NCBI GenBank assembly: GCA_028277625.1
Contig: JANQFW010000042.1
Coordinates: 2,675 to 66,674 of the forward strand
Direction: 5' to 3'
Length of the DNA: 64,000 bases
Source: Candidatus Gastranaerophilales bacterium
GTDB lineage: Bacteria > Cyanobacteriota > Vampirovibrionia > Gastranaerophilales > JANQFW01
Numbering within the stretch: position 1 is the stretch's first letter; each line of letters begins with the position of its first letter. Of this stretch, positions 7,376-29,789 are shown one piece after another. The position numbers and the translations under genes were made by a program. The notes beneath the pieces are model-generated. The model saw only the letters and a program-made list of their open reading frames with translations, did no database searches and was not told the origin of the DNA.

Positions 7376-7387
7376 AAGACAGGGTAG

Positions 7388-10346: not shown

Positions 10347-10349
10347 TAA

Positions 10350-12365
10350 ATGTCGACCAGAAAAAACTTGCTTAACGAGCTTTTGCTGGAAGCTCAAATA
10401 TTAAATAAAGATCAATTAGGTATTATAAACGAAAAAAAAAGTAAATCTGACAAACCTTTCCTTGAGCTGATTAGCGAAACAGCAAGCTTGGATAAAAATG
10501 AGCTTAGCAATCAGTTAAAAGATTTGTTAGAGTTGCAATACGGTGTTGCTTTTATTGAGCTGGCTAATGCTCAAATTGACGAAGATCTGATAAATGTCTT
10601 CTCAGTGGACTTAATAAAGAATCATAAATTTTTGCCGCTAGGGCAAAGCGGTAATATGTTTACACTTGCAATGACTGACCCTGATAACCTTGTTGCGGAT
10701 CAAGATATCAACTTTAGGTTGCAAAACAACAATTTTAAAGATTATAAAATAAAAAAAGTAGTTATTTTTGAAGATGACTTTGACAACTACGCTAGCAGCA
10801 AATTTGCAAAAAAAGAATCTGCAAATCAGGAAATTGAGCAAGATACAGATGAATTGATATCCTCAATAGGTATTGAAGTAGAGCAAGCTACTGCAGATAT
10901 ATCTGATGATGTATCTGACCTGATGAATTCTGCGCAGGAAGCACCTATTATTCAGCTTGCAAATAGCATCCTGGGTGTTGCAATAAAAAGGGGGGTTAGT
11001 GATATCCATATTGAGCCCAGGGAAAAAGAGTTGCAGGTTAGATACAGGCTCGACGGTGTTCTTAGTATTTATAAAATACTTCCTAAAAAAATTCAAAACT
11101 CAATTACATCAAGATACAAAATTATGTCTGAGCTTGATATCTCTGAAAGAAGACTGCCGCAAGACGGTCGTATCAGAGTGAAAATGTCAAATAAAATGGT
11201 TGACTTTAGGGTGTCAACTCTACCAAGCAAGTTTGGCGAAAAAATAGTTATGCGGATTCTGGATAAGTCTAATATTTCTCTTGGGCTAGATCAATTAATA
11301 ACTAACCCTGAAATATTAGAACTGGTAAGAGAAATGATTAGTCGTCCATACGGTATTATATTTGTAACAGGACCAACAGGAAGCGGCAAGACAACTACTT
11401 TGTATAGTGCCTTAAGCGAAAGAAATACACCGCAAGTAAACATATCAACAGCAGAAGATCCTATTGAATATGACCTTGATGGTATAACCCAGTCTGAGGT
11501 GAATAAAGTAATTGGTATGGATTTTGCCAAGATATTAAAAGCGTTTTTAAGACAAGATCCCGATATAATGCTAGTTGGAGAAACAAGGGATAAAGAAACT
11601 GCTAAAATTGCTATTGAAGCGGCATTAACAGGTCACCTTGTATTTACTACACTCCACACAAACGATGCACCAAGTTCTATTATGAGGCTTGAGGAAATGG
11701 ATATTGAGCCATTTCTTATATCTAGCTCAATCATAGGTGTTATTGCCCAGCGACTGCTGCGCCGAATTTGTTCAAATTGTAAAGAATCGTATGAACCTGA
11801 TCTTGAAATGCTAAAGTTTCTGGGAGTTGAAAATTTTTCAAATAAGACTTATTACAGGTCAAAAGGTTGTGATAAGTGTAATAACACCGGCTATAAAGGT
11901 CGAGTTGGTGTCTATGAAGTTATGAAAGTTACAGACGAGTTAAGAGACTGCATCTCAAAAGGAGTAAATACTGCAATTTTGAAATATCAAGCTCAACAAT
12001 CCGGTATGAAAACACTGCTTGAGTACAGTTTGGATATAGCAAGAGAAGGCCATACAACCCTTGATGAAGTTATTAGGGTTACCTTTACATCTGAAGGACA
12101 ATCGTCAATGTGCCCGAACTGTAGCAAACCTGTTGGAGACGAATTTTATAAATGTCCGTTTTGTCAGCATGATCTCAAAAAGACTTGTCCTAAATGCAAA
12201 TCGATACTTCAAGAAGGTTGGTCAAATTGCGCAAAATGCGGATTTAATACTTCTGAAGTAATAACAGAATCAGTTTGCCCAACATGTAGCGGCGACATTG
12301 CATTAGAGATGAACGAGTGTCCATGGTGCTTTACCACGTTAGCAGAATTAAACTTAAATAAATAA
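10350..12365 (+). CDS. pilB: Type IV pilus assembly ATPase PilB (GspE family) with C-terminal triple zinc-ribbon extension
   Basis: 671 aa. N-terminal T2SSE_N-like domain. Walker A GPTGSGKTTTLY. Asp/His boxes (EDPIEY, LRQDPDIMLVGETRD, TGHLVFTTLHTND). The usual tetracysteine CSNC...CDKC is present. An extra 85-aa tail carries six CxxC pairs. Confidence 0.9.
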   Translation: MSTRKNLLNELLLEAQILNKDQLGIINEKKSKSDKPFLELISETASLDKNELSNQLKDLLELQYGVAFIELANAQIDEDLINVFSVDLIKNHKFLPLGQSGNMFTLAMTDPDNLVADQDINFRLQNNNFKDYKIKKVVIFEDDFDNYASSKFAKKESANQEIEQDTDELISSIGIEVEQATADISDDVSDLMNSAQEAPIIQLANSILGVAIKRGVSDIHIEPREKELQVRYRLDGVLSIYKILPKKIQNSITSRYKIMSELDISERRLPQDGRIRVKMSNKMVDFRVSTLPSKFGEKIVMRILDKSNISLGLDQLITNPEILELVREMISRPYGIIFVTGPTGSGKTTTLYSALSERNTPQVNISTAEDPIEYDLDGITQSEVNKVIGMDFAKILKAFLRQDPDIMLVGETRDKETAKIAIEAALTGHLVFTTLHTNDAPSSIMRLEEMDIEPFLISSSIIGVIAQRLLRRICSNCKESYEPDLEMLKFLGVENFSNKTYYRSKGCDKCNNTGYKGRVGVYEVMKVTDELRDCISKGVNTAILKYQAQQSGMKTLLEYSLDIAREGHTTLDEVIRVTFTSEGQSSMCPNCSKPVGDEFYKCPFCQHDLKKTCPKCKSILQEGWSNCAKCGFNTSEVITESVCPTCSGDIALEMNECPWCFTTLAELNLNK

Positions 12366-12387
12366 AAAGATAGAGGAGTTTACTTTA

Positions 12388-13467
12388 ATGTTACTAGAAG
12401 AATTATTACAGTTAGTATTCCAAAAGGGGGGAAGTGACTTACACATATCAGTAGGTTTACCTCCTGTAATAAGGGTTGATGGAAAACTTATTAGAACAGA
12501 CCATCCACCTCTCACTAAAGAAGATGTTCAAAGATTAATATTTAGTATGTTGAATAACGAACAAAGACGAAATTTGGAGCAAAACTGGGAACTGGATTGC
12601 AGTTATGGTGTTTTTGGTTTAGGACGATTTCGTGTTAACGTATATAAAGAACGGGGAAACTACGCAGCAGCACTGCGTACAATTAACTCAGAGGTGCCCA
12701 GTTTTGAGCAACTTGGCTTGCCTTCTGTGGTTAAGGAAATTGCTGAAAGGCCTCGTGGCTTAATCCTGGTTACAGGCCCGACCGGTAGCGGTAAGTCTAC
12801 TACACTTGCTACTATGATAGACCACATTAACCAAACCCGTAAAGAACATATTTTAACAATTGAAGATCCTATTGAATTTTTACATACATCCAAGCGCTGC
12901 ATTGTACACCAACGTGAATTAGCACAAGACACTCGAAGTTTTAGCAATGCGTTAAGAGCAGCTCTTCGTGAAGATCCTGATATTATACTTGTTGGTGAGC
13001 TTCGTGACCTTGAAACTATTTCTTTGGCTCTAACTGCAGCTGAAACAGGTCACCTTGTAATGGGAACGCTTCATACCTCATCTGCTAGCCAAACAGTTGA
13101 CCGTATAGTTGATGTATTCCCGGCAGAGCAGCAACAACAAATTAGAGTTCAGCTGTCTAACAGTTTAGTGGCAGTATTTAGTCAGACATTAGTACCTAAA
13201 CTTGACCATACTGGCCAGAAAAAAGGTAGGGCTCTTGCTCAAGAAATTATGGTAGTAACACCTGCGATTGCTAACCTAATTAGAGAAGGTAAAACTGCAC
13301 AAATATACTCTGCGATTCAAACAGGTGGTGCCCAAAAAATGCAAACACTGGAAAATACTTTAAGAGACCTTTATCAGAAAAAACTAATAACCTATGATGA
13401 TGCATTATCAAAAACAAGCCGTCCTGAAGATCTAAAAAGAATGCTTGGCAGTGGTGCATCTGTCTAA
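12388..13467 (+). CDS. pilT: Twitching-motility retraction ATPase PilT
   Basis: 359 aa. Contains GGSDLHISVGLPPVIRVDGKL, LIFSMLNNEQRRNLEQNWELDCSYGV, GPTGSGKSTTLA, REDPDIILVGELRD, TGHLVMGTLHT and the AIANLIREGK motif. Confidence 0.95.
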   Translation: MLLEELLQLVFQKGGSDLHISVGLPPVIRVDGKLIRTDHPPLTKEDVQRLIFSMLNNEQRRNLEQNWELDCSYGVFGLGRFRVNVYKERGNYAAALRTINSEVPSFEQLGLPSVVKEIAERPRGLILVTGPTGSGKSTTLATMIDHINQTRKEHILTIEDPIEFLHTSKRCIVHQRELAQDTRSFSNALRAALREDPDIILVGELRDLETISLALTAAETGHLVMGTLHTSSASQTVDRIVDVFPAEQQQQIRVQLSNSLVAVFSQTLVPKLDHTGQKKGRALAQEIMVVTPAIANLIREGKTAQIYSAIQTGGAQKMQTLENTLRDLYQKKLITYDDALSKTSRPEDLKRMLGSGASV

Positions 13468-13608
13468 ATATAATATTTTAGCCAAAAGTATCCCCCTTGC
13501 TAAGGGGTAAGGGGGGCAAAATAATTATCACTATTAGCAACTTACTTTGTACAAATAGCTGTGGATAACACTTTTAGACTTTTTCCCTGAAAACATAGGA
13601 GTGGTTTT

Positions 13609-14841
13609 ATGCAAAAATTTAATTACAAAGCAAGAGATGAAAAGGGCAATTTGATTAGCGAAAAAGGCTTTTATGCCGAAAACGTTAGTGCTGCCAGAGA
13701 ACAGCTCTTGCAAAAAGGGTTGTGGATAATTGAACTGAAAGAAGAAAGCAAAGCTGCGGATTTATTAAATTTTGAGCTGGACAGTGTGTTTGCAAAGTTC
13801 GCCGGAGTGTCTTTAAAAGACAAAGTAATATTTTGCAGACAATTTTCATCATTGGTAAATTCTGGTGTGGCTATGCTTAGGGCTATGACAATATTATCTG
13901 AGCAGTGCGAAAATCCAAAATTGAAAAAAATCTTAAGAGACATTAAAGAAAAGCTTGAGCAGGGTTCTTCTTTGTCTGATGCTTTTGCTCAGTACCCAAG
14001 TGTGTTTGATAAGTTATTTATAAGTATGATAAAAGCCGGCGAAACCGGTGGTATTCTTGATGATGTATTAATGAGAATTGCTGCATTTATGGAAGATAAA
14101 GCAAGATTAAACGCACAAATTAAATCAGCACTAACTTATCCGACTGTAGTTACTATTTTAGCAATGGTAATCTTTGTTGTTATGTTGACCTTTATTCTTC
14201 CAAAATTCTCACAAATTTTCTCTAAACTGGGCGGTGAATTGCCTGCTTACACACAGTTTTTGATAAATATAAGTGAACTATTACGCTCTTATTGGTCGCT
14301 TGTACTTATTGCGGGTGTAATATGCTTTGTGTGGGCTTTTAAAAAGATATATTCTTTGGAAAAAGGTAAATATATAATTGATGCCTTGACCCTAAAAGTA
14401 CCTTTATTTGGTCCGTTATTGCAAAAAGTTGCTGTTGCCAGGTTTACTAGAACGCTTGGTACACTTATTAGAAGTGGTGTTCCGATTTTAATTTCATTAG
14501 AAATTGTTCAGGAATCATCAGGAAACGCAGTATTGTCCAAAAATGTAGGTGAAGTTTACGAGGAAATAAAGCAAGGCGGGGCATTATACTCAAAATTAGA
14601 AGAATCCCCTTTATTTCCACCAATGGTTACATCAATGATTTCTGTTGGTGAAGAAACCGGTGAGTTAGACAATATGCTTAACAAAGTTTCTGACTTTTAT
14701 GATTCTGAAATTGAACGAACTGTCGAAGCACTTACTTCATTAATAGAACCACTTATGATGGTTGTATTAGGTGGTATGATCGGAGCTGTAATTGTCGGTA
14801 TGTACCTGCCCATGTTTGCGATATTTGATCAGATCAATTAA
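13609..14841 (+). CDS. pilC: Type IV pilus platform protein PilC (GspF family)
   Basis: 410 aa. The T2SSF repeat is duplicated (FCRQFSSLVNSGVAMLRAM... and FTRTLGTLIRSGVPILISL...). Three TM segments. The C-terminal LIEPLMMVVLGGMIGAVIVGMYLPMF is typical. Confidence 0.9.
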   Translation: MQKFNYKARDEKGNLISEKGFYAENVSAAREQLLQKGLWIIELKEESKAADLLNFELDSVFAKFAGVSLKDKVIFCRQFSSLVNSGVAMLRAMTILSEQCENPKLKKILRDIKEKLEQGSSLSDAFAQYPSVFDKLFISMIKAGETGGILDDVLMRIAAFMEDKARLNAQIKSALTYPTVVTILAMVIFVVMLTFILPKFSQIFSKLGGELPAYTQFLINISELLRSYWSLVLIAGVICFVWAFKKIYSLEKGKYIIDALTLKVPLFGPLLQKVAVARFTRTLGTLIRSGVPILISLEIVQESSGNAVLSKNVGEVYEEIKQGGALYSKLEESPLFPPMVTSMISVGEETGELDNMLNKVSDFYDSEIERTVEALTSLIEPLMMVVLGGMIGAVIVGMYLPMFAIFDQIN

Positions 14842-16432: not shown

Positions 16433-17554
16433 CTAATTATTTACAGATGGAGAGTTATATATTTTTATTAATGTATTTAAATCTCTTACCACCGGCGCAT
16501 CTTTTGCATGCTGAATGCTTCTTTTTAAAGGAGCCTCTTCTGATGATTTAAAATCAATATCGTTTTTAACTTCGTAAAAGTCGTACATTAAGTCTAGCGG
16601 GCTTCTACTATGCCCCCAGATACCTAGTGCGTGTCCTAGCTCGTGTGCAATAATTTTATGCAAATACGGCGAGCTATGATATTTACCGATGTTTATTAAA
16701 ACTTTGAATTTAGAAGATCTTTCTTCTGTTAAGATGGGTGTGGTTTTACAAGTTCTATCAGGATTCCAGCTTATTATAATATCGGCAGCTTTTTTATTTT
16801 TTGTAACTGATAGATAAAGATGTTTATTCCAAAGCTTTATAGCGTGCTTTGCGTATTCTTCTATACCTTTTTTAGCCGGCTCTTCAATATAAATAAGCAC
16901 AGGGAAATGTGTCCATCTAAGAGTTTCATTCTTTTTAGATTTTGCAATGCGCGAAAAATAATCACCAAAGCTGTCTTCATATTTAATATCAAAAAACTCT
17001 TCTTTTGTGCTTTCTCTCTCAGGCTTATCTTCTACTATCCAGTCAGGAGGTTCGATTTTTATTTTATTCTCTTTTTCATCATCATCAGTAGATATTACGA
17101 TGGTTTTTGATTGTACTGGAATTTTTTCTGCTAACCTTTTAAATCGCTCATCCAACGTACCTGTGAAGGAGCGTCCAAATACGGTTTCTTCTAACCTTGC
17201 AAGGCGTATTTGCATTGATTCAGTATTGTATTCTGTGTTAAAAAATTTGTTTTCCATTAGCTTTATTAAAGCTTCGTGAGGATAGTCACCTTTTGAATAT
17301 AAATAGCTTTTTATTCTTACTACTCTTTTATTTAAATTGCCTATAGAGGATTGACCATAAATTGACTGTTCAATACGGTTCAGGCGTTTGAAAATATCAT
17401 CTCTATTGTAATTTTCTTTGTATAGCGTACGTTCTACCCGCTCTACTTCTGCTAGTATGTTTACTTTTTGAGCCGGTGCGTTATAAATGCCTTTCGCTGA
17501 TGCGAATGCGAGGGAGCTAATAAATATTGCTATAGTTAATAGTAGTTTTTTCAT
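16433..17554 (-). CDS. Secreted putative zinc metalloprotease (metzincin-like HELGHALGIWGHS)
   Basis: 373 aa. Signal peptide MKKLLLTIAIFISSLAFASA. HExxH is embedded in HELGHALGIWGH near the C-terminus. The N-terminal half has two copies of a roughly 45-aa R-L-x-R-[IL]-E-x-x-[IV]-[YF]-G motif. Confidence 0.55.
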   Translation of the reverse strand: MKKLLLTIAIFISSLAFASAKGIYNAPAQKVNILAEVERVERTLYKENYNRDDIFKRLNRIEQSIYGQSSIGNLNKRVVRIKSYLYSKGDYPHEALIKLMENKFFNTEYNTESMQIRLARLEETVFGRSFTGTLDERFKRLAEKIPVQSKTIVISTDDDEKENKIKIEPPDWIVEDKPERESTKEEFFDIKYEDSFGDYFSRIAKSKKNETLRWTHFPVLIYIEEPAKKGIEEYAKHAIKLWNKHLYLSVTKNKKAADIIISWNPDRTCKTTPILTEERSSKFKVLINIGKYHSSPYLHKIIAHELGHALGIWGHSRSPLDLMYDFYEVKNDIDFKSSEEAPLKRSIQHAKDAPVVRDLNTLIKIYNSPSVNN

Positions 17555-18489: not shown

Positions 18490-21318
18490 ATGTTACAGAT
18501 CCTAGATTTCATCCTTTCAAAGTTTAGCAAAATTTCTCTTATTATCGTTGAAAAAATAATCAATACAATTATTTATATTTTAAATATATTTCGTACTAGT
18601 TTTTATCTAAATAAAGCTGAAAAAAATATCAAAGAAGAAAATTATGAACTTGGAATTAAAAATTTGGAGAAAGCTGCAAGGTACGTTGATAACAATAGTA
18701 CAGGAGAGAGGTATTACATTATTCACTATAAAACTGGCAAGTGTTACTTTCACCTTGCACAGAAAAAAAATGATATAGAGAGTTACAAAAAAGCAAAAAA
18801 TCATTTTGAGAAAGCTATTATTAAATTTTCTTATTATGACAAGAGTGAATATAAAAAATTAAACAAATTCTTAATGAATATAAAAGATAATATTTTTAAA
18901 TATGAGTACAAGCAATATAATTTTGATAGTACCAAAATCAGAAATTCAATAGATAATATAAAGGAAGCACTTGAAGGTTATAAATTTGACTCTTCTGATA
19001 AACTACAAGCCCTAATATATGCTGAAATACAAAGTAACTTAGCTACTTGTTATACTAAAGAATTAGAAAATGAAAATAACAATGATTATATTAAAAAGGT
19101 TCTACTCGCATATCATGAATGCTTAAGAGTTTATAGCCCAAGCGAATACACGGAAAAATATCTAAATAATATTGAAAAACTAGGTGTCTTTTATATAAAC
19201 AACATGTCTAGCAACCAGGATAATTTATCTACTGCTATTAATCATTTAAACAATGCTCTTCACATTTATTTATCCAATTTTAAAGCTTACGAAAGAGAAG
19301 TATCAAGAATAAACTATTATCTGGGAAAAGCTTTTTATAAAATGGGAAAAATTGAAAACTCAAAAGATAACTATAATAAAGCTATTGAATGTTTAAAGCT
19401 AGCAAATAATGATTCTGTGAAAAAAGAAGAATCCGAAAAATTAGCTCAAATACTTGATTTAAAAGGATTATGCTATATGAAACTTTTTAAGTTAATCGAT
19501 AACAAAGCAAATCTGGAAAAATCCAATAAATCCTACGAGGAGGTTTTATCAATTTATCAGTCAGGTAAATCTGACGATAAACTATTAAGACTATGTTACG
19601 TTCGTTGTCATATAGGATTAAATTACTTAAACTTGGCAAAAATTGAGAACGTACAAATTAACTTGGACAACGCGTTAAATAAATACATGCAGGCGTTTAA
19701 TGATTATGAAAACATTATCAAAAATACAAATGAAAACAGACTGCTGGAAATTAATAAAAAAGACAAAATTAAGTACGAAGCCTGCTATCATAGAAGCCGT
19801 ATTTATCTTTTTAAAGCAGAAGTGAAAGATACAAAAGAAAATATAGGCTATGCATTAGAGGACATAGAAGAATCTAAAAAGTCAATTCCATCTAAGGTTG
19901 AGCCTGAATTTATTTGTAAGCTATCAAGCGTCAGGGCAAAAGCTTTAACAATAAAAAGTGAACTTGTGGATAGAGGTAAAAACTTAGAATTAGCAAATGA
20001 AAATATTAGCTGCTCGATCGATAACATAAATAAGGAAAAAAATCCTATTTATTATTCTAACTTTATGAATAGAAAAGGAGATATTTTTATAGAATTGTCT
20101 CATATTAGAAAAAAAAATAAACAGTTAAAAACAGCTGAAGAGGCTTATGAAGAAGCTTTAAGTATTAAAACTCTTGAAAAATATCCTATAGGAAATGCTA
20201 TTACTCATAAAAAGCTGGTTAATTTGTTTATTGAAAAAGCAAAAATTAAAAACACTCAGGAGAATTTAGATGAAGCTTGCAAGCATATTAAAAATGCAAA
20301 TGTTTTTTGTTCTAAAATAGTAAATCTCCCTTATGAACTTGGTAAAATATATGTTCACTGTGGCCAAATTCAACATTTATTCAGCAAAATCAAAAAAAAC
20401 TATAATGGTTATAGCAATGCAAGTGAAGCATCTTTTAATAAAGCTCTAGATATATTTACATCAGAAAATTTTCCCATTTGGCATACGAAAATTGAATATC
20501 AGTTGTGTGATTTAAAAATTACAATAGTAAAAATTGACTATATAAAAAATAAAGAGAATAAGCTAGACAAAGAGATACTTATAGACACTATATTTAAACT
20601 TGAAGACATTCTAAAAATTATGAAAGATCAGGGTTACATTTATAAGCAAGCAAAAATTTGCAGCAAACTTGCAGATTGTTACTTAATGCTAGCATCAGAT
20701 GATATAATTGGAGATAAAGAATCAAAGCATCTTGAAAGTGCTGAAAACTACTTAAATGAGACACAGAATATATTTAAACCTGACTCTAGCCCTTTAGATT
20801 ATTCTGATCTAGCCAATAGACTGGGGTATTTGTCTTATTTAAAATATTTAGAACATTCTAATAATGAAAATCTGTTTAATGAAGCAGAAAAATATTATAA
20901 AGAGGCGCTGGACAAAAGACCTTTCAAAGATTATCCGATACATCAAGCTTATATACTTGAAAATATGGGAGACTTATATTTGGAAAAAGCCTCAAAGGTT
21001 GAAAGCAGTGAAGGCTCTCAAAGATATAAGGATAATGCTAAAGATTGCTACGAAAAAGCGATGTCTGTATTTATCTCGGAAAACTATGTTCATGACATAG
21101 AAAATTTGAGAACCAAGTTGGAAAAAGCATACTTACACGATATATTAATTAATGATGAGCTAAGAAGTAGTTCTATTAACGATGTATTAACCAGTAAAGA
21201 TTTAACAAGCAAATACATTGATGATATATTAAAAAATGACAAGCTAAAAGATCTTATAGAGAAAGAGATTAATCGTAGTGAATCAGCAATACAGCTAAAA
21301 AATCAGGGTGATAAATAG
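18490..21318 (+). CDS. Large TPR-like helical-repeat protein, function unknown
   Basis: 942 aa. GGAGG lies 9 nt upstream of the ATG. Hydrophobic N-terminus. Many roughly 34-40-aa helical units of the form A..Y...A/L...P (e.g. AEEAYEEALSIKTLEKYP, AEKYYKEALDKRPFKDYP). Confidence 0.55.
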   Translation: MLQILDFILSKFSKISLIIVEKIINTIIYILNIFRTSFYLNKAEKNIKEENYELGIKNLEKAARYVDNNSTGERYYIIHYKTGKCYFHLAQKKNDIESYKKAKNHFEKAIIKFSYYDKSEYKKLNKFLMNIKDNIFKYEYKQYNFDSTKIRNSIDNIKEALEGYKFDSSDKLQALIYAEIQSNLATCYTKELENENNNDYIKKVLLAYHECLRVYSPSEYTEKYLNNIEKLGVFYINNMSSNQDNLSTAINHLNNALHIYLSNFKAYEREVSRINYYLGKAFYKMGKIENSKDNYNKAIECLKLANNDSVKKEESEKLAQILDLKGLCYMKLFKLIDNKANLEKSNKSYEEVLSIYQSGKSDDKLLRLCYVRCHIGLNYLNLAKIENVQINLDNALNKYMQAFNDYENIIKNTNENRLLEINKKDKIKYEACYHRSRIYLFKAEVKDTKENIGYALEDIEESKKSIPSKVEPEFICKLSSVRAKALTIKSELVDRGKNLELANENISCSIDNINKEKNPIYYSNFMNRKGDIFIELSHIRKKNKQLKTAEEAYEEALSIKTLEKYPIGNAITHKKLVNLFIEKAKIKNTQENLDEACKHIKNANVFCSKIVNLPYELGKIYVHCGQIQHLFSKIKKNYNGYSNASEASFNKALDIFTSENFPIWHTKIEYQLCDLKITIVKIDYIKNKENKLDKEILIDTIFKLEDILKIMKDQGYIYKQAKICSKLADCYLMLASDDIIGDKESKHLESAENYLNETQNIFKPDSSPLDYSDLANRLGYLSYLKYLEHSNNENLFNEAEKYYKEALDKRPFKDYPIHQAYILENMGDLYLEKASKVESSEGSQRYKDNAKDCYEKAMSVFISENYVHDIENLRTKLEKAYLHDILINDELRSSSINDVLTSKDLTSKYIDDILKNDKLKDLIEKEINRSESAIQLKNQGDK

Positions 21319-21468
21319 ATATTATAGAAAAACATATTAAAAATGAACATTAAATATTATCGATGCTATTGAAGCAAAAAAATAATAATGTTAGAATCAA
21401 TAAATAGAAATAATATTAAATTTAGAGCTAAAAAATATTTATTTAATATATGCAGCCTGGAGAATTTT

Positions 21469-21903
21469 ATGATCAGAAATTTAACTTTTATTAAAACAAT
21501 TTTAATGAAAGGTGTAATAGATAAAGAGGAAATGCATCGACTAGTGGAAGAATATCAAGAAGATGCGTTTTCAATATTGCAGCATCTTGTAACAGAAAGC
21601 CCGCACAGAAAAGAAGAATTTGCAAGGCTATGGGGCGATTCTTTAGGCTTGAGTTACGTAAATCTTAAAAAAACTTTTTTCCAAAAAGATGTAATGTTTA
21701 AAATTCCGCAGGATTATGCAATGGAAAACAAAGTAATTGCAATTTATCAATTTGGTCACGTTACTACAGTAGCACTTTCTGACCCTACTCATCCTTTTTT
21801 AAAAGAAGATGTTGCTAAGTATTTGAATACGCCTGTTAATGTTGTTTTTTCTATGCCCGATGAAATTGAAGATGCGATATTTAGCCAATATCAATCTGAT
21901 TAA
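21469..21903 (+). CDS. Stand-alone T2SSE_N (GspE/MshE N-terminal)-like domain protein
   Basis: The track ORF starts at 21388. I prefer the ATG at 21469, which has GGAGA 6 nt upstream. The sequence GVIDKEEMHRLVEEYQ...LGLSYVNLKKTFFQKDVMFKIPQDYAMENKVIAIYQFGHVTTVALSDPTHPFLKEDVAKYLNTPVNVVFSMPDEIEDAI follows the N-terminal domain pattern of PilB/GspE. No ATPase domain is attached. Confidence 0.6.
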   Translation: MIRNLTFIKTILMKGVIDKEEMHRLVEEYQEDAFSILQHLVTESPHRKEEFARLWGDSLGLSYVNLKKTFFQKDVMFKIPQDYAMENKVIAIYQFGHVTTVALSDPTHPFLKEDVAKYLNTPVNVVFSMPDEIEDAIFSQYQSD

Positions 21904-23874: not shown

Positions 23875-24510
23875 TTGAATGGATTTGGTCGCTTAACGCT
23901 AAATAATTTTAATAATCAAAATCCGATTGCGCCTAAAAACTTAAATATTGGTGCGCAAAATCCTATTAAGCAAGAAAAGCTTAAGAAAACTGAGCGCAAA
24001 AAAAGCAAAAAAAAGGGCGAAAATTTAAACCCTGAAGAATTTGGAATTTCTGAGAACAGTGCTATAGAAAACTTAGCTGCTGAATCTTTAAAATATGAGC
24101 TAAAGCTAGATCTTGTTGAGCAGCAATTAACAGCGCTGGAAAGTGAAATAAAATTAGCCAGAAATTCTGGTGATGAAGATGCAAACTTGTTTGCTGATAG
24201 GCTAGAAGAAAAAAAATTAAAAAAAGAAGAAGATATAAAAAAATTTCGTGAGGAATACAGAAACCTGGGATTTCCTAACAAATTGGCTGATAGCATTGAT
24301 AGCAGTTATAAGAGTATAGCAAAGATATTTAAAACCGAACAAACCAACCAAATCATTGAGTCAAAGAAGAAAAGCTTAGCTACTCCTTTTTTATCAAAAA
24401 CTATCGAGATTAAAAATTCTATCACTAAAATGGTTGAGGAGCAGAAAGATCATCGCCCCAGATCATACAATCCTTTTTCACCCTTTGATAATAATTCATT
24501 GACGCAATAG
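23875..24510 (+). CDS. Hypothetical K/E-rich coiled-coil protein
   Basis: 211 aa. TTG start with no clear SD. The composition suggests a coiled coil. A 126-aa antisense shadow ORF also exists. Weak call. Confidence 0.4.
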   Translation: MNGFGRLTLNNFNNQNPIAPKNLNIGAQNPIKQEKLKKTERKKSKKKGENLNPEEFGISENSAIENLAAESLKYELKLDLVEQQLTALESEIKLARNSGDEDANLFADRLEEKKLKKEEDIKKFREEYRNLGFPNKLADSIDSSYKSIAKIFKTEQTNQIIESKKKSLATPFLSKTIEIKNSITKMVEEQKDHRPRSYNPFSPFDNNSLTQ

Positions 24511-24591
24511 TTAACTAAGCAAAGAAAAACCCTGACAACACTAAGGTTATCAGGGATTCTACAAAGTAAATTTTTGCAAATTTACTTATAC

Positions 24592-25596
24592 TTATTGAAT
24601 TGGCCTTTTATCTGTTACATCAAACTTATTTGCCTCTGCATTTGTTAATTTTTTATTTTCGGTTACAGCTTTGCCTATTATACCACCAGGATTGGTAAAC
24701 TCGCCTGCCGGGTCAACTGTGATACCGCTACTTTCAGCTTTTAATCTTATGTTAGAGTCTTTTTCTGGTGAGTCTAGTCTCATTTGCTTATTTTTGTAAG
24801 AAACATGCGTACCGTCTTTTAGGTCATACTCACCGGCTTTTAGCTTTTTGTCATTCAATGTAGCTGCGCCTTTTTTATCAAAAGTTATAACATCATCTCC
24901 AGCTTTTACTCTGGCTTTTCCTATTACTTGAGGATTATCTGGATCTTTGGCATAAGGAACATATTTGCCGTCAACCTGAAAGTTATCGCCTTTGAATACA
25001 TTATATGTGTGATTATCTTTACCTTTGTGATCAAACTTTATATCATTACCGTTTTCTCCTTTTAAATGATAATGCGGGTCACCCCATGCACCTTTGCCAT
25101 CATCCGGTATTGTAGTAGTATCATCTCCACCTGGCGTTGTGTCTGTACCCGGTGTTGTATCATCTCCACCTGGTGTAGTATCTATACCTGGAGGGAACGC
25201 ATTGCCAATATTGTTATTTACCTGCGTTACATTATTACCGCCAACATTAGTATTAAGTTGTGACAATATTCCACTAAACATATTATCTATAGAGGTATCG
25301 CCACCTGTTATAGTATCTGTAGCCGGTGGAATAGCATTACCAATATTGTTATTTGCTTGCATTACATTATTACCGCAAAAATTAGCATTAAACTGTGACA
25401 ACAGCCCACCAAGTATATTATTATTTGATTGTTGTGAATTTTCTCCCCCAAAATCCATATTTACTTGTTTAGCTAAATCACTAAAAATACTGTTATTTGA
25501 CTGCAACGCGTTTAAACTGTTGAACGCAACATTTGTTTGTTTAGATATTGATTGTGGTAGGCATTGCTTAATTAAATTAGATACATCTAAGCTCAT
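24592..25596 (-). CDS. Repeat-containing protein with W-G-D-P-H motif (DUF1521/VWD-like putative autocleavage module)
   Basis: 334 aa. AAGAGGAG SD upstream. No signal peptide. The N/Q/G-rich N-terminal half carries a duplicated roughly 45-aa unit and GGDDTTPG micro-repeats. AWGDPHYHLKGENGNDIKFDHKG follows (GDPH encoded at 25083-25072), then a beta-rich roughly 160-aa domain. Confidence 0.55.
   Translation of the reverse strand: MSLDVSNLIKQCLPQSISKQTNVAFNSLNALQSNNSIFSDLAKQVNMDFGGENSQQSNNNILGGLLSQFNANFCGNNVMQANNNIGNAIPPATDTITGGDTSIDNMFSGILSQLNTNVGGNNVTQVNNNIGNAFPPGIDTTPGGDDTTPGTDTTPGGDDTTTIPDDGKGAWGDPHYHLKGENGNDIKFDHKGKDNHTYNVFKGDNFQVDGKYVPYAKDPDNPQVIGKARVKAGDDVITFDKKGAATLNDKKLKAGEYDLKDGTHVSYKNKQMRLDSPEKDSNIRLKAESSGITVDPAGEFTNPGGIIGKAVTENKKLTNAEANKFDVTDKRPIQ
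25147..25416 (-). repeat. Intragenic tandem duplication (about 135 nt x2) plus GGDDTTPG micro-repeats
   Basis: The protein units ILGGLLSQFNANFCGNNVMQANNNIGNAIPPATDTITGGD and FSGILSQLNTNVGGNNVTQVNNNIGNAFPPGIDTTPGGD are encoded by clearly similar DNA. Compare ...CCAATATTGTTATTT[AG]C[CT]TGC[GA]TTACATTATTACCGC... at ~25200-25250 and ~25335-25385. Confidence 0.6.
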
Positions 25597-25905
25597 TCCT
25601 CAAGTCTCCTCTTATCTTCTCTTTTAAGGAAATAGTAAAAAATTCTATTTATTGCATCTTTAACTTTTTAAAGCATAAGTAGTTCAAGTTATTTACTGAA
25701 TAACAACCGTTATGTGTTTTAAATTTCTACAAACAGCAATTATTCTCAGAAATTTTTAAACATTCTGCAAAGTACTATATTGTTTGTTTTAGGCTTTTTC
25801 TTATTTCTCGTTCTCAACTCTCTCTGACTATATAAAAACTTTTCTAATGAAAGAATTGCTATTTAAAATATATTGTTTTTATATCTTGAAAAAATAATTC
25901 AATTT

Positions 25906-26643
25906 TTACAGTGGTTTTTTTTTGGGTAATCCTGTTCGTCTTGGATATTTATCTGGTGTGATAGATTTTTTTTGGACTATAATTAAATTTCTTGTTATTG
26001 AGTCTTTTTCTGGAAGTTTGTAGTCTATTTTTTTAATAAATTCACCGCCCAAAATATGCAACGCATTTTGAGATTCTAACAATTCGTCATTAACACTGAA
26101 TGCTTTGTATGCAATAAAATAACCATCTTTTTTAACGAATGGTAGACAATACTCAGACAAAGCATTCAGTTTGCCAACTGCTCTTGAGACACATACGTCG
26201 AATAGTTCTCTATAATTAGCATTTCTTGCCAGCTCTTCTGAGCGAGTGTTTAAAATTTCTATTTTATTTGGCAAGCTTATTTTTGTGAGTAGCTCTTCTA
26301 AAAATTTTGTTTTTTTGCCAACAGAATCAACTGCGCATATTTCTAAATTTGGAAAAACTATTGCAAGTGCAAATGAAGGAAACCCCCCACCTGTACCTAT
26401 ATCTATTAACTTACTAGGTTTATCAAAATTTAGGTAGTTAGTAACCAAGCCAAAAGAGAGTGAGTCTATGAAATGCTTGACAAAGACTGTGTCGATCTTG
26501 GCATCACTCACTATGTTAGTATGGAAATTATATTCATTCAAAAATTCCCAGTATTTGTAAAAATTATCAAGCTGCTCTTGCGATAATGCAATATTAAACG
26601 ATTGCGCTGATTCTTGCAGAAAATTTAGTTTATCTTGCTTCAT
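25906..26643 (-). CDS. rsmG: 16S rRNA (guanine527-N7)-methyltransferase RsmG (GidB)
   Basis: 245 aa. SAM motif IDIGTGGGFPSFALAIVFP and a C-terminal RNLIIVQK block. The start overlaps the upstream ATPase-TPR stop by 14 nt. Confidence 0.9.
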   Translation of the reverse strand: MKQDKLNFLQESAQSFNIALSQEQLDNFYKYWEFLNEYNFHTNIVSDAKIDTVFVKHFIDSLSFGLVTNYLNFDKPSKLIDIGTGGGFPSFALAIVFPNLEICAVDSVGKKTKFLEELLTKISLPNKIEILNTRSEELARNANYRELFDVCVSRAVGKLNALSEYCLPFVKKDGYFIAYKAFSVNDELLESQNALHILGGEFIKKIDYKLPEKDSITRNLIIVQKKSITPDKYPRRTGLPKKKPL

Positions 26644-29167
26644 TTTTCCTTTTAATTTCTTTTAAATATTCGTTAAATTTTTTCTCACCTAGTTCATTAA
26701 ATAATAATCGGAGCTTTCTTTCAATTCTTTCTTTTGAATCTGTTGAGATTGTTTTGCCTAAAACCTTTTGTGCTCTGATAAAAAACTTTAGAGTATTGGC
26801 ATATTGTTTTATATTTAGATAATATTCACCTACATCTAAATAAGCTCGTGATATCCAATAAGGATCATTTGATGATTTAGCTATTTTTATTTCTTCGTTA
26901 AAGCACTTTATGGCTGCTGAATGATTTTCCTTTTCATAATAAATATTACCAAGAATTGAATATGTTTTAAATAAGCCTTCGTAGTTATTATTATTTTGAT
27001 CAACCAATAATGATTTTTTATAAAAATGAATAGCTTTTTCCAGATCATTTTTTTCATCAAAAATAGATGCAAGGTTAAAATAAGAGTCTGACAAGTTGGG
27101 ATTATTTTCTGAATTTGTTATTTGCGTATTGAGCTTATAATATTTTAAAGCTTTTGGAGGCTGCTTTATATCATCGTAGATTAAAGCTAAATTAAAATAT
27201 AATAATGCTTTTACTTTGTCATCGAGTTTTGCATCTTTAATTGCTTCTACTAAATGATAGTATTTTAAGGCATTATCATAATCTTTTTTGTAGCTATAAA
27301 TATTAGCTATACCTAAAAGTGTACTAGCTAAAAGCATATCTGGCATGTGGTGTTGAAAATTTAGCATTTCATTATAAATATTCAATGCGTTGTTGTGCTT
27401 GTAGCTGGCCATATAAATTTCTGCCAGCTGGGTTTGACATTCAAGCATGAAGTCAAGCTCACCTGTGGCTGAAGAAATATTTATAGCTTTTTGCAGATGA
27501 TTAATGGCCTCTTCTTTTTTGCGTTGAGAATATAAGGATTGTGACAAATTTTTATACTGCACCGCAAAATTTTGCTCATTAGAGCTATTATCTGGCAATT
27601 GTGGCACATTTAGATGCTGAACTTCTGCATCTTTTAAGCTATTTAATTCCGCTAAATTATCAGCTTGCATTATAGAGTTGATTGCTTCATTCTGAAACGA
27701 GTCGGCATCCAAAAGTTTCAATTCATCTTGAGTTAATTGTGCAACTATATCTTCCTCTATTTGACTAGCTATCTCATTTACGGATTGATTATCTTGTACT
27801 AGCTCATTATTTTTAGTGGGCAAAACTTGCATATTAGCTATATCATAAAATTCTGGGCTATATTGTTCTTGTAGGGATGAATATATTAACAATTCCGGCG
27901 AGAACTCTTTTTTTATTCCTGTTGCGCGAGGTGTTTTTATTACGCCATTGTTAAATAAATAATTATAGTGATAATATTGCTCTGTATGCATGAGCTTACG
28001 TGATATTGGGATGGTTCTTTCTTTTAGTGTTTTTGAAATTTCCTTGGTGTAAAGATTATAGATAAACTTATGGTGCTCTATTTGCTTTTCTTTGGGGATT
28101 AAATTAATTATTATGTTTTTTATGTAGTCTTTTACGCAATAAGAGTCATTAGCATAGGCAATAAGTTTAGTTGACTTTAGATAATCAAGCTGATCTTGAA
28201 GGTTGGTTATGGTAAATATATTTTTAATTGAATGGGTTTTAAGTGGATGTCTGATTAGCGTTAGGACGTGCAGTACGTTTTTTTGACTATCTGATAAAGA
28301 ATTATAAAAATCCTTTATAATAAAATCATCAAAAGCGTCTTCTTGCATAAAGTAATTTTTAGCCAGGTCAAACGGCTCAATCTTCATTAAATTTAGTGCA
28401 TTAACAAACCATAATAAAGTTTCTGGGTAGCCGTGTGTGATTTCGTAAATTTTTGGGAGCAGATGGTCGGGAATGTCTTTTGATATTTGCTTTAAAAAAT
28501 TTATAGACTGCTCTTTATCGAGTCCACTTAGCTTTATATCATTAATAAACTCGTTTCTTATACCAATATTAGAAATGGGTATATGCTGACCTGCAATTAG
28601 CAGTTTGAGGTCAGGCACTGATGCTAGGTACCTTAAAAATACTAATATGTCTTCTTTAATTTCTGTATTATCTTTTATTAGGCGATCAAAATCATCTATC
28701 GTTACTAACAAAGGTCTCTTTAAGGTCTTTAAATAACTGAAAAGCTTTTCATCTATGCTGTTGTTTATATTATTTATGTCAGTACGTTTAGTTTCTTTTA
28801 TTTCAAGCTTTTTATTAAAAAAATTATAAAAAGATAAAATTATATCATCAAGGTTAGTAATTGCCGAGCAGGTATAATAAAAATGCAAAACCTGGTTATC
28901 TACAAACTTATTAACTGCTCTTATCAAGGTTGTTTTGCCAACACCCTGCAAGCCCCTGACAAATATTAGTTTTTCTTTGCCGGAGTTAAGAGTTTCCAAT
29001 ATATCAAGGATAATGTCTTTTCTGTCTGACAAAGTGTAGAGCATGTCTGTGCTGGCTTTGTTAAAGCGCGCGAGTTTACAAAGTTGCTTAAACTCTTTAT
29101 TGTCATACTCTTGGTATGAATTTATTTTTGCTAATATGTTTTTGTTAACAAAAGTATTTTTCGACAT
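26630..29167 (-). CDS. P-loop NTPase (AAA/STAND-like) fused to C-terminal TPR array
   Basis: 845 aa. Walker A VRGLQGVGKTTL. Walker B-like PLLVTIDDFDRL. A helical middle region. At least 6 TPR units in the last ~300 aa (e.g. YDNALKYYHLVEAI, PPKALKYYKLNTQI, LEKAIHFYKKSLLV). Confidence 0.65.
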   Translation of the reverse strand: MSKNTFVNKNILAKINSYQEYDNKEFKQLCKLARFNKASTDMLYTLSDRKDIILDILETLNSGKEKLIFVRGLQGVGKTTLIRAVNKFVDNQVLHFYYTCSAITNLDDIILSFYNFFNKKLEIKETKRTDINNINNSIDEKLFSYLKTLKRPLLVTIDDFDRLIKDNTEIKEDILVFLRYLASVPDLKLLIAGQHIPISNIGIRNEFINDIKLSGLDKEQSINFLKQISKDIPDHLLPKIYEITHGYPETLLWFVNALNLMKIEPFDLAKNYFMQEDAFDDFIIKDFYNSLSDSQKNVLHVLTLIRHPLKTHSIKNIFTITNLQDQLDYLKSTKLIAYANDSYCVKDYIKNIIINLIPKEKQIEHHKFIYNLYTKEISKTLKERTIPISRKLMHTEQYYHYNYLFNNGVIKTPRATGIKKEFSPELLIYSSLQEQYSPEFYDIANMQVLPTKNNELVQDNQSVNEIASQIEEDIVAQLTQDELKLLDADSFQNEAINSIMQADNLAELNSLKDAEVQHLNVPQLPDNSSNEQNFAVQYKNLSQSLYSQRKKEEAINHLQKAINISSATGELDFMLECQTQLAEIYMASYKHNNALNIYNEMLNFQHHMPDMLLASTLLGIANIYSYKKDYDNALKYYHLVEAIKDAKLDDKVKALLYFNLALIYDDIKQPPKALKYYKLNTQITNSENNPNLSDSYFNLASIFDEKNDLEKAIHFYKKSLLVDQNNNNYEGLFKTYSILGNIYYEKENHSAAIKCFNEEIKIAKSSNDPYWISRAYLDVGEYYLNIKQYANTLKFFIRAQKVLGKTISTDSKERIERKLRLLFNELGEKKFNEYLKEIKRKNEAR

Positions 29168-29715: not shown

Positions 29716-29789
<74 letters not shown>

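What the first reader, a model, noticed from the sequence alone, without database searches (positions are those of the whole stretch)
24592..25596. Repeat-rich protein with a W-G-D-P-H motif: candidate self-cleaving (DUF1521/MIIA- or VWD-like) module
Seen in sequence:
- The 334-aa product has an N/Q/G-rich N-terminal half with a duplicated roughly 45-aa unit and (G)GDDTTPG micro-repeats.
- Then comes GKGAWGDPHYHLKGENGNDIKFDHKGKDNHTYNVFKGDNF, with GDPH encoded at 25083-25072.
- A beta-rich domain of about 160 aa follows.
- There is no N-terminal signal peptide.

Established knowledge:
- A GD|PH dipeptide junction is the autocatalytic cleavage site of eukaryotic VWD/RGM/mucin domains.
- It is also the cleavage site of the bacterial DUF1521 metal-ion-inducible autocleavage domain, described in the rhizobial effector NopE1 and in a Vibrio coralliilyticus protein.

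Inference:
- This protein may be an exported or contact-dependent factor.
- It may split at D173|P174 on encountering Ca2+ outside the cell.
- Such modules are rare and poorly explored outside proteobacteria.
Basis: partly seen in the sequence, partly recalled or inferred. Interest (0 to 1): 0.65.

Follow-up and report, generated by a model that had tools for sequence, protein, structure and literature searches.

The report
Bacterial VWD-like domain with self-cleavage motif
A gut-associated relative of cyanobacteria encodes a protein whose folded C-terminal half is a cysteine-free bacterial cousin of the von Willebrand D domain of mucins and keeps that domain's Gly-Asp-Pro-His self-cleavage motif, so it very probably cuts itself in two, although cleavage, export and function are untested.

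Summary
In detail: a 334-aa ORF (24592..25596, minus strand), WGDPH at residues 171-175, a 45-aa tandem duplication, TTPGGD-type micro-repeats and no signal peptide.

The C-terminal ~172 aa is a divergent VWD-fold domain.
- The AlphaFold model has pLDDT 94.
- All 48 best PDB fold matches are VWD domains (MUC2, MUC5AC, VWF, FCGBP, RGMB).
- The family profile reaches proteins that pass Pfam VWD at E~1e-30.
- The window protein itself hits no Pfam model, neither VWD nor DUF1521.

G-D-P-H is invariant in the family (152 of the first 158 proteins retrieved) and lies between strands β1 and β2, as at proven VWD cleavage sites. Self-cleavage at D173|P174 is therefore the best-supported mechanism, inferred and not shown.

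Three Paracoccus-type relatives sit inside T3SS injectisome clusters. This gene and its Melainabacteria-type relatives stand alone among housekeeping genes.

The domain is charge-neutral, unlike the acidic MIIA domain, so the Ca2+ trigger is open.

Verdict: a new, unannotated member of a known kind, of moderate interest.

The parts
24592..25596 (-). Complete gene, 334 codons plus stop. It is a stand-alone transcription unit.
   Evidence: The identical protein P0001 is in the public collection.
25606..25610 (-). Shine-Dalgarno AGGAG, 9 nt upstream of the ATG.
   Evidence: read
25123..25596 (-). N-terminal region, residues 1-158: N/G/T/S-rich, acidic (pI about 4) and predicted disordered. It is hypervariable between paralogues.
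   Evidence: pLDDT 35-54, no secondary structure; composition; variability
25162..25421 (-). Tandem duplication of a 135-nt (45-aa) unit, 1.9 copies at 80% identity.
25118..25191 (-). Micro-repeats of 18/21 nt encoding (T)TPGGDD-type units, 3.2-3.7 copies. Copy number differs in the paralogues.
24595..25119 (-). VWD-fold beta-sandwich domain, residues 160-334. It has no cysteines and is charge-neutral.
   Evidence: pLDDT >90; all top PDB matches are VWD; profile links to Pfam-VWD proteins and FCGBP
25072..25083 (-). G172-D173-P174-H175 motif between strands beta1 (169-171) and beta2 (175-179).
   Evidence: topology as described for FCGBP in PMC10880436
25075..25080 (-). Codons of D173 and P174, the predicted scissile Asp-Pro bond. 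Predicted products are 17,884 Da (residues 1-173, pI 4.05) and 17,818 Da (residues 174-334, pI 8.9).
   Evidence: inference from homology
24520..24555 (-). Intrinsic terminator with a 10-bp stem (5 G-C pairs), a 6-nt loop and a T-run. It lies between this gene and the convergent 211-aa ORF.

Best explanation
The gene encodes a two-part protein. Residues 1 to about 158 form a disordered, repeat-bearing, fast-evolving acidic region. Residues about 160-334 form a cysteine-free bacterial von Willebrand D (VWD)-fold beta-sandwich.

Shown:
- The fold and the homology to VWD.
- The G-D-P-H motif is invariant and lies in the turn between the first two strands of the sandwich, as in VWD domains that self-cleave.

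Inferred by homology:
- Once the domain folds, the side-chain carboxylate of D173, assisted by H175, attacks the D173-P174 peptide bond. A cyclic anhydride forms and the bond breaks.
- The products are an acidic N-fragment (residues 1-173), which still carries two edge strands of the sandwich, and a basic C-fragment (residues 174-334).
- With no disulfide to tether them, the two pieces are held only non-covalently and can separate.

Inferred from family features:
- The protein is probably exported by a route that does not use a Sec signal peptide. Some proteobacterial relatives are encoded inside T3SS injectisome clusters. In this lineage the route is unknown, and the flagellar export apparatus is one candidate.
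- Cleavage probably takes place on folding outside the cell.

Whether Ca2+ gates folding or cleavage is open. The biological role (effector, adhesin or matrix protein) is unknown.
For: Fold:
- The AF2 domain model has pLDDT 94.3 and pTM 0.90.
- In the Foldseek PDB search the 48 best hits are all VWD-domain proteins: MUC2 at E=7.7e-6 with TM up to 0.65, then MUC5AC, MUC5B, VWF, FCGBP, RGMB, vitellogenin and Cypridina luciferase.

Sequence:
- The family profile A2 hits FCGBP at E=4.7e-5 through WGDPHY..DG..FD..G.
- The broader profile A3 hits FCGBP at E=9.9e-35, with single VWD domains aligned over profile positions 4-122.
- A2 retrieves proteins at E~1e-30 to 1e-20 that carry precomputed PF00094 or that NCBI names 'VWD domain-containing protein'.
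- Relatives P0079, P0149, P0099, P0120, P0086, P0091, P0092, P0163 and P0189 pass Pfam's VWD cut-off.

Motif:
- W, G, D, P and H are invariant in 26 of 26 clusters.
- G, D, P and H are the only invariant columns across the 43-sequence superfamily alignment.
- 152 of the first 158 proteins retrieved have GDPH.
- The motif lies between strands 169-171 and 175-179. This is the position at which FCGBP is cleaved, with D and H both required (PMC10880436).
- Bacterial GDPH proteins NopE1 and VIC_001052 are experimentally self-cleaving after the Asp (PMC6506597).

Export:
- Only 9 of 222 complete N-termini have any hydrophobic segment.
- P0163, P0192 and P0189 lie inside T3SS clusters.
- Some relatives have PA-IL lectin, PKD or RTX fusions.
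- A few members have lipoprotein- or Sec-like leaders.

Diversification, as is typical of secreted or surface proteins:
- Paralogues occur within one MAG, and there is a tandem duplicate with a different repeat number.
- Identity to the closest relatives is 85-92% in the domain but 59-68% over the whole protein.
Against: - No cleavage, export or expression data exist for any member of this subfamily.
- The window protein itself reaches no Pfam model at E<=10.
- The Gln of the FD(F)QG motif, which contributes partially to FCGBP cleavage, is Lys here (FDHKG).
- No secretion genes are near the gene in the window or in the six other Melainabacteria-type or Cyanobacteriota-MAG contexts. All are stand-alone among housekeeping genes.
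- Only some Gastranaerophilales have complete flagellar gene sets (PMC4040986).
- Two core members have GDPI or GDPS, so the His is not absolutely required for whatever the domain does.
- Profile A3 contains one eukaryote-type VWD repeat (from P0118), which inflates the FCGBP E-value.
Confidence: 0.6

Rival explanations
1. It is a true MIIA/DUF1521-type switch. The domain is unfolded in the low-Ca2+ cytoplasm, passes through a T3SS-type channel, binds Ca2+ outside the cell, folds, and only then cleaves at GD|PH.
For: - Four of 26 family members give weak DUF1521 hits, the best at E=0.0029.
- One distant relative, P0079, passes both the VWD and the DUF1521 Pfam cut-offs.
- Paracoccus-type relatives sit in T3SS clusters.
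- Eukaryotic VWD domains carry a bound Ca2+ (PMC7599080, PMC11796319).
- Several acidic or amide positions are conserved across the superfamily: D189, N199, D209, N248, D261, E278.
- A protein with no Sec signal needs something to stop it cleaving in the cytoplasm.
Against: - The window protein has no DUF1521 hit at E<=10.
- The broad profile retrieved no PF07481-annotated protein.
- The domain is charge-neutral (28 acidic, 29 basic residues, pI 8.0). MIIA has 42 acidic and 21 basic residues, and neutralising that charge is the proposed basis of its Ca2+-induced folding (PMC6506597).
- There is no injectisome in the window or in related Melainabacteria-type loci.
Confidence: 0.2
2. It is a non-cleaving VWD-like binding or structural domain. 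GDPH is conserved only because it forms a particular tight turn (with a cis Gly-Asp bond) needed for the fold, and the protein works as one chain.
For: - Many eukaryotic VWD domains, such as those of VWF and the last two of FCGBP, work without cleavage (PMC11796319).
- P0049 (GDPI) and P0050 (GDPS) keep the domain but not the His.
- K191 replaces the helper Gln.
Against: - Every GDPH motif tested in a VWD or VWD-like context is cleaved: MUC2, MUC5AC, 11 of 11 in human FCGBP, RGM, SUSD2, and the bacterial proteins NopE1 and VIC_001052 (PMC8267560, PMC10880436, PMC6696261, PMC6506597).
- The nucleophile Asp, the Pro and the catalytic His are the only residues besides Gly that are invariant across the superfamily alignment. 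This pattern points to chemistry and not to packing.
Confidence: 0.15
3. It is a clip-and-link protein. Cleavage creates a C-terminal Asp-anhydride on the N-fragment, which then reacts with an amine or hydroxyl on another molecule (its own lysines, a partner protein or a glycan). This would attach the variable N-terminal region covalently, as in FrpC-type RTX proteins or the ITIH heavy chains.
For: - The anhydride intermediate is established for Asp-Pro self-cleavage. It is used productively by ITIH3 to form an ester to chondroitin sulfate, and by RTX 'clip-and-link' proteins (reviewed in PMC8267560).
- Several family members carry RTX-like repeats.
- The C-fragment is very Lys-rich: the domain is 14.5% K.
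Against: - In FCGBP the anhydride is buried and simply hydrolysed, and no adducts were found (PMC8267560, PMC11796319).
- Nothing in the sequence identifies an acceptor.
Confidence: 0.08
4. It is an intracellular protein. Cleavage, if any, is a constitutive maturation step that stabilises the fold in the cytoplasm. The N/Q-rich region mediates assembly or condensation inside the cell.
For: - There is no signal peptide and no neighbouring secretion genes.
- FCGBP cleavage occurs early in biosynthesis and stabilises the domain (PMC10880436).
Against: - All characterised VWD and GDPH proteins are extracellular or secreted.
- Some relatives lie in T3SS clusters or carry lectin, PKD or RTX domains or lipoprotein leaders.
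Confidence: 0.12

Closest known systems
Eukaryotic VWD domains with GDPH autocleavage (MUC2, MUC5AC, FCGBP, RGM/hemojuvelin, SUSD2; Pfam PF00094)
   Same: - The same beta-sandwich fold.
- The same N-terminal signature, WGDPH[YF]..DG..FD..G..Y.
- GDPH lies between strands beta1 and beta2, and the Asp and His needed for cleavage are conserved (PMC10880436).
   Different: - There are no cysteines or disulfides, so nothing tethers the fragments covalently after cleavage.
- There are no C8, TIL or E partner modules.
- A 4-residue insertion lies between GDPHY and FD.
- The helper Gln is replaced by Lys.
- The host is bacterial and there is no signal peptide.
- The protein scores below the Pfam threshold.
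Uncharacterised bacterial 'VWD domain-containing proteins' in Rhc-type T3SS clusters (e.g. Paracoccus aminophilus P0163, P. sediminicola P0192, Pseudomonadota MAG P0189)
   Same: - Clear homologues at E~1e-29 to the family profile.
- The same size (320-356 aa) and layout: a variable N-terminal region followed by a C-terminal GDPH domain.
- No signal peptide and no cysteines.
   Different: - They have IWGDPHF[VI]G and a ...GLLGQT.DGDG.ARNG... C-terminal motif in place of GIIGKA..EN..LT.EEA.KFDVT.
- They sit between sctU and the needle and sctD genes.
- The window gene and its close relatives are never near T3SS genes.
DUF1521 / MIIA domain (NopE1, NopE2 of Bradyrhizobium; VIC_001052 of Vibrio coralliilyticus; Pfam PF07481)
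   Same: - A bacterial GD|PH self-cleaving module of about 170 aa in proteins without a signal peptide.
- Similar overall size (VIC_001052 is 370 aa).
- One relative, P0079, passes both the DUF1521 and the VWD models, which suggests common ancestry.
   Different: - The window protein does not match PF07481.
- MIIA is highly acidic and disordered without Ca2+ (PMC6506597). This domain is charge-neutral and is confidently predicted to fold.
- The T3SS link is absent here.
Self-processing module of RTX proteins (FrpC of Neisseria meningitidis, ApxIVA): Ca2+-dependent Asp-Pro 'clip-and-link'
   Same: Asp-Pro autocleavage chemistry through an anhydride in a secreted bacterial protein without a Sec signal. 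Some family members carry RTX-like repeats.
   Different: This is an analogy only. No sequence or fold similarity was detected, and no GDPH/VWD signature is known to me in the self-processing module. It was not tested here beyond the absence of hits.
[quoted passage not shown]
   Same: GDPH between the first two strands of an unannotated VWD-like sandwich (PMC10880436, section 2.7). This is another case that Pfam missed.
   Different: They are eukaryotic secreted proteins. The anhydride is used to esterify chondroitin sulfate.

Membership tests
VWD domain (Pfam PF00094 / VWD fold) | Score at or above Pfam's curated threshold (22.9 bits) for PF00094. | tested here: not met
   The window protein has no Pfam hit at E<=10. 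Only 2 of 26 close relatives give weak hits, the best at 0.011. More distant relatives reached by the family profile do pass.
VWD domain (Pfam PF00094 / VWD fold) | VWD beta-sandwich fold. | tested here: met
VWD domain (Pfam PF00094 / VWD fold) | Profile-level sequence homology to accepted VWD proteins. | tested here: met
   A2 against PF00094-annotated bacterial proteins gives E~1e-30. A2 against FCGBP gives 4.7e-5. A3 against FCGBP gives 9.9e-35, and against MUC2 and MUC5AC about 5e-3.
VWD domain (Pfam PF00094 / VWD fold) | GDPH located between strands beta1 and beta2, with the Asp and His present (the self-cleaving subset). | tested here: met
   Strands at 169-171 and 175-179 flank G172-H175. 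The motif is invariant. The criterion comes from PMC10880436.
VWD domain (Pfam PF00094 / VWD fold) | Conserved intradomain disulfides and the accompanying C8/TIL/E modules (the 'D assembly'). | tested here: not met
   The domain has 0 cysteines. Nothing follows it, since the protein ends at residue 334. No C8 or TIL hits were found.
VWD domain (Pfam PF00094 / VWD fold) | Bound Ca2+ site in the sandwich. | tested here: inconclusive
   Conserved acidic and amide positions exist: D189, N199, D209, N248, D261, E278. Model coordinates and a residue-level alignment to the known site were not available.
VWD domain (Pfam PF00094 / VWD fold) | Actual Asp-Pro autoproteolysis. | not testable with these tools
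   This needs recombinant protein and mass spectrometry.
DUF1521 / MIIA (Pfam PF07481) | Score at or above Pfam's curated threshold (23.6 bits) for PF07481. | tested here: not met
   The window protein has no hit at E<=10. Four of 26 relatives are sub-threshold, the best at E=0.0029. Only the distant fragment P0079 passes, at 24.0 bits. No PF07481-annotated protein was retrieved with the broad profile.
DUF1521 / MIIA (Pfam PF07481) | Strongly acidic domain that is intrinsically disordered without metal (42 acidic and 21 basic residues in 171 aa). | tested here: not met
   The domain has 28 acidic and 29 basic residues and pI 8.0. It is confidently predicted to fold, although AF2 cannot tell whether folding depends on metal.
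DUF1521 / MIIA (Pfam PF07481) | Link to a T3SS (secreted by it, or encoded in its cluster). | tested here: not met
   The 64-kb window has no T3SS or flagellar genes, and neither do the loci of P0013, P0008, P0009, P0007 and P0022. The link does hold for the Paracoccus-type relatives.
DUF1521 / MIIA (Pfam PF07481) | Cleavage after the Asp of GDPH induced by Ca2+ or Mn2+. | not testable with these tools
   This needs biochemistry.

The most novel reading that the evidence does not exclude
Bacterial GDPH proteins may form one large, ancient VWD superfamily. It would include this Melainabacteria family, the T3SS-cluster proteins of Paracoccus and, through bridging sequences, DUF1521/MIIA, which the literature has treated as GDPH proteins 'without VWD domains'. 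Self-cleavage would be the ancestral activity of the VWD fold.

In gut Melainabacteria, which lack an injectisome, the family would have been repurposed as a multi-copy set of proteins exported without a Sec signal. Cleavage would release, or covalently 'clip-and-link' through the Asp-anhydride, a fast-evolving disordered N-terminal region. Possible targets include host mucus, which is itself built from GDPH-cleaved VWD proteins (MUC2, FCGBP).
Probability: 0.12. Interest if true: 0.75.

Novelty: new member of a known kind. Interest (0 to 1): 0.42.

Why it matters
- It extends the self-cleaving VWD/GDPH module to a sibling lineage of the cyanobacteria and to proteins that no curated model currently recognises.
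- The T3SS-linked bacterial GDPH proteins turn out to be VWD-fold relatives. The open literature searched does not make this connection: no paper mentions both DUF1521 and VWD, and NopE1 is listed as a non-VWD protein.
- A 172-residue, cysteine-free, unglycosylated VWD domain that can be produced in E. coli would be a convenient minimal model for the still-debated chemistry of GDPH cleavage.
- Like MIIA, it could serve as a self-removing tag.
- Biologically, it flags a multi-copy, rapidly diversifying and probably exported protein family in gut Gastranaerophilales, whose interactions with their hosts are essentially unknown.

Tried and rejected
- Pfam, NCBIfam and PDB sequence searches with the single protein gave nothing.
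- The BFVD viral library gave no significant match, so a phage origin is not supported.
- I tried to retrieve bona fide DUF1521 proteins with the broad profile, and none came back. The DUF1521 relationship therefore rests on weak or bridging Pfam hits only.
- I looked for a conserved gene neighbourhood in the Melainabacteria-type members and found none. The flagellin gene 6.6 kb from P0009 is a single case and is not evidence.
- I considered a link to the type IV pilus genes about 10 kb upstream and rejected it, because they are not adjacent and are not present in the other loci.
- I considered recent horizontal transfer. The gene's GC (36.1%) lies within the range of neighbouring genes (27-36%).
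- The + strand ORFs overlapping the gene (25066..25263 and 25094..25627) are mirror-frame artefacts of the repeats.
- Mapping the VWD Ca2+ ligands failed because model coordinates are not exposed and the papers read give no residue list.
Full report
**1. The observation**

The minus-strand ORF 24592..25596 encodes 334 aa. It has an AGGAG Shine-Dalgarno sequence 9 nt upstream of the ATG. A 309-nt intergenic region separates it from rsmG upstream. A strong intrinsic terminator lies downstream at 24555->24530, with a 10-bp stem and a T-run. It is therefore an independent transcription unit.

W171-G172-D173-P174-H175 is present, and GDPH is encoded at 25083..25072, exactly as reported. A degenerate WGDPH-coding pattern occurs once in the window and never in 100 shuffles.

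Tandem Repeats Finder confirms the 45-aa duplication: a 135-nt unit x1.9 at 80% identity, 25162..25421. It also confirms the TTPGGD-type micro-repeats: 18/21 nt x3.2-3.7, 25118..25191.

The N-terminal 162 residues are N/G/T/S-rich with pI 4.05. There is no hydrophobic stretch anywhere in the protein (highest Kyte-Doolittle 15-mer average 0.89), so there is no Sec signal or membrane anchor.

**2. What the C-terminal half is**

The single sequence matches nothing in Pfam or NCBIfam at E<=10, and nothing meaningful in PDB sequences at that cut-off.

Homologue searches define a family.
- There are 26 clusters at 90% identity.
- An exhaustive profile search of 1.84 billion representatives finds 587 representatives at E<=1e-3, 277 at E<=1e-10 and 65 at E<=1e-30.
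- All share a domain of about 170 aa that begins with WGDPH. The region upstream of it is hypervariable.

A domain-only alignment (A2) gave an AlphaFold2 model with pLDDT 94.3 and pTM 0.90. It is an all-beta sandwich with two short C-terminal helices.

Foldseek against the PDB returned only VWD-domain proteins as its 48 best matches. They are MUC2 (E=7.7e-6, TM up to 0.65), MUC5AC, MUC5B, VWF, FCGBP, RGMB, vitellogenin and Cypridina luciferase.

Sequence evidence agrees.
- Profile A2 hits FCGBP (E=4.7e-5) through WGDPHY..DG..FD..G at the start of several of its VWD domains.
- A2 reaches about 60 bacterial proteins at E 1e-30 to 1e-18. About 20 of them carry a precomputed PF00094, and several are named 'VWD domain-containing protein' by NCBI.
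- Nine such relatives pass Pfam's curated VWD cut-off when scanned.
- A broader 43-sequence profile with the window domain as first row (A3) hits FCGBP at E=9.9e-35. Single VWD domains align over profile positions 4-122. MUC2 and MUC5AC come in at about 5e-3. One caveat applies: A3 includes one eukaryote-type VWD repeat, from P0118.

I conclude, with high confidence, that the domain is a divergent, cysteine-free bacterial VWD domain.

**3. Relationship to DUF1521/MIIA**

The window protein has no PF07481 hit. Four of 26 relatives give sub-threshold hits, the best at E=0.0029.

The composition differs sharply from MIIA.
- MIIA has 42 acidic and 21 basic residues in 171 aa. It is disordered until Ca2+ or Mn2+ neutralises that charge (PMC6506597).
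- This domain has 28 acidic and 29 basic residues and pI 8.0.

The protein should therefore not be filed under DUF1521, although it probably works in a similar way.

**4. Mechanism**

Work on FCGBP D10 established several points (PMC10880436).
- GDPH lies between the first two strands of the sandwich.
- D->A, D->N and H->N mutations abolish cleavage.
- The released piece carries strand beta1.
- Cleavage stabilises the domain.
- The Gln of FDFQG helps only partially.

The chemistry runs through an Asp-anhydride (PMC8267560). The bacterial GDPH proteins NopE1 and VIC_001052 cleave after the same Asp (PMC6506597).

In the window protein the picture is as follows.
- G, D, P and H are the only invariant columns across the superfamily alignment.
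- GDPH is present in 152 of the first 158 proteins retrieved.
- The full-length model places strands at 160-163 and 169-171 before the motif and at 175-179 after it.
- The equivalent of the helper Gln is Lys191 (FDHKG).

The best-supported mechanism is therefore self-cleavage at D173|P174 on folding. It would give an acidic, disordered N-fragment of 17,884 Da (pI 4.05) and a basic C-fragment of 17,818 Da (pI 8.9). No disulfide is available to hold them together. This is inferred from homology, and no member of this subfamily has been tested.

Two core members have GDPI or GDPS, so the motif is occasionally degenerate.

**5. Context and export**

The window is ordinary chromosomal DNA from a diderm bacterium.
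- The immediate neighbours are iPGM, an unannotated 211-aa ORF, RsmG and a STAND-NTPase/TPR protein.
- PilB, PilT and PilC lie about 10 kb upstream.
- There are no T3SS or flagellar genes.
- The gene's GC (36.1%) is typical for the region.

The closest relatives are in Candidatus Gastranaerophilales MAGs.
- L006 shares synteny with the window.
- L005 has a tandem duplicate whose N-terminal repeats differ: 7 GGDTVT-type units, against 2 x 45 aa plus 3 micro-repeats in the window protein.
- One MAG encodes both P0002 and P0007.

In five further Melainabacteria-type loci the gene stands alone among unrelated genes.

Three proteobacterial relatives are different. P0163 (Paracoccus aminophilus), P0192 (P. 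sediminicola) and P0189 (a Pseudomonadota MAG) all sit at the same position inside complete Rhc-type injectisome clusters, between sctU and the needle-chaperone and sctD genes. Three other distant relatives stand alone.

Family-wide features bear on export.
- Only 9 of 222 complete N-termini have any hydrophobic 11-mer.
- Some members carry RTX-like repeats, PKD domains or a PA-IL lectin.

Together these point to export without a Sec signal. In this lineage the route is unknown. Only some Gastranaerophilales have complete flagellar gene sets (PMC4040986).

**6. Comparison with what is known, and novelty**

The protein works like the GDPH-cleaving VWD domains of mucins, FCGBP and RGM, and like the bacterial MIIA domain.
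- It belongs to the VWD superfamily by fold and by profile. It fails Pfam's threshold and lacks the disulfides and the C8/TIL/E partner modules.
- It is not a DUF1521 member by any test I could run.

The open literature searched contains no paper that mentions both DUF1521 and VWD. It also lists NopE1 among GDPH proteins 'without vWD domains' (PMC8267560). The unifying view is therefore at most implicit in database annotation.

I rate the finding a new member of a known kind. It is an unannotated, phylum-novel subfamily with a different genomic context, but presumably the same chemistry.

**7. Verdict**

- VWD-like self-cleaving module: supported.
- DUF1521 membership: not supported.
- Ca2+ trigger: open.
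- Export: plausible but unproven.

Interest is moderate at 0.42. The protein offers a tractable minimal VWD domain for studying GDPH chemistry and a lead into the secreted proteins of gut Melainabacteria. It is not a new kind of system.

Noticed in passing
L007 10001-11020; L009 10001-11071; L010 10001-10963: Uncharacterised proteins of 320-356 aa with a VWD/GDPH domain occupy a fixed slot inside Rhc-type T3SS injectisome clusters of Paracoccus and of a Pseudomonadota MAG, between sctU and the needle-chaperone and sctD genes. The conserved position suggests a dedicated T3SS substrate, such as a tip, translocator or early effector, that appears to be undescribed.
   Followed up: partly
L005 4090-5040 and 5578-6516: The family gene is tandemly duplicated downstream of rsmG in a related Gastranaerophilales MAG. 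The C-terminal domains are nearly identical, but the N-terminal repeat arrays differ, with 7 GGDTVT-type units in the second copy.
   Followed up: yes
proteins P0053 and P0124 (family members, not in the window): Conserved N-terminal (MG[ML]SASQARLL.LTARLSDLELQAQQISNSKIRL) and C-terminal helical segments flank the VWD-like domain. The layout recalls flagellin or axial T3SS substrates. There are no Pfam or PDB matches. P0124 has lost GDPH (YYDPVV).
   Followed up: partly
proteins P0085, P0029, P0118 (family members, not in the window): P0085 (1225 aa) combines two GDPH domains with a PKD domain and a C-terminal PA-IL lectin. P0029 and several others carry RTX-like GGxGxD repeats upstream of the domain. 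P0118 (7101 aa) has ten eukaryote-type VWD repeats with [WAF]GDPHYTT.
   Followed up: no
window 24592-25596: The two predicted cleavage products have almost identical masses (17,884 and 17,818 Da) and opposite charge (pI 4.05 and 8.9). They would co-migrate on SDS-PAGE, so cleavage could be missed without tags or MS.
   Followed up: yes
window 7019-7846: PrlF-antitoxin and YhaV-toxin gene pair on the + strand.
   Followed up: no
window 8616-14841 and 21388-21903: Type IV pilus / T2SS-like block: a 576-aa ORF with no Pfam hit, PilB-like T2SSE with MshEN and double zinc ribbon, PilT-like T2SSE, and PilC-like T2SSF. A separate small protein (171 aa) carrying only an MshEN domain lies further downstream.
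   Followed up: no
window 18490-21318, 26630-29167, 38125-42678: Large repeat proteins: a 942-aa TPR protein, an 845-aa STAND-NTPase (ATPase_2/NACHT-like) with TPRs that overlaps rsmG by 14 nt, and two tandem HEAT-repeat proteins of 725 and 784 aa.
   Followed up: no
window 4121-6199 and 16433-17554: A heparinase II/III-like lyase (692 aa) and a protein with an M10 (matrixin) zinc-protease motif and a weak astacin hit (373 aa). Both are candidate enzymes acting on host matrix or glycans in this putative gut bacterium.
   Followed up: no
window 23875-24510: A convergent 211-aa ORF with a TTG start, Lys/Glu-rich and coiled-coil-like, has no Pfam match. It is also adjacent in the syntenic locus L006 (205 aa) but not in L005.
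   Followed up: partly
window 29716-29789: A single tRNA gene on the + strand, the only Rfam match in the window.
   Followed up: no
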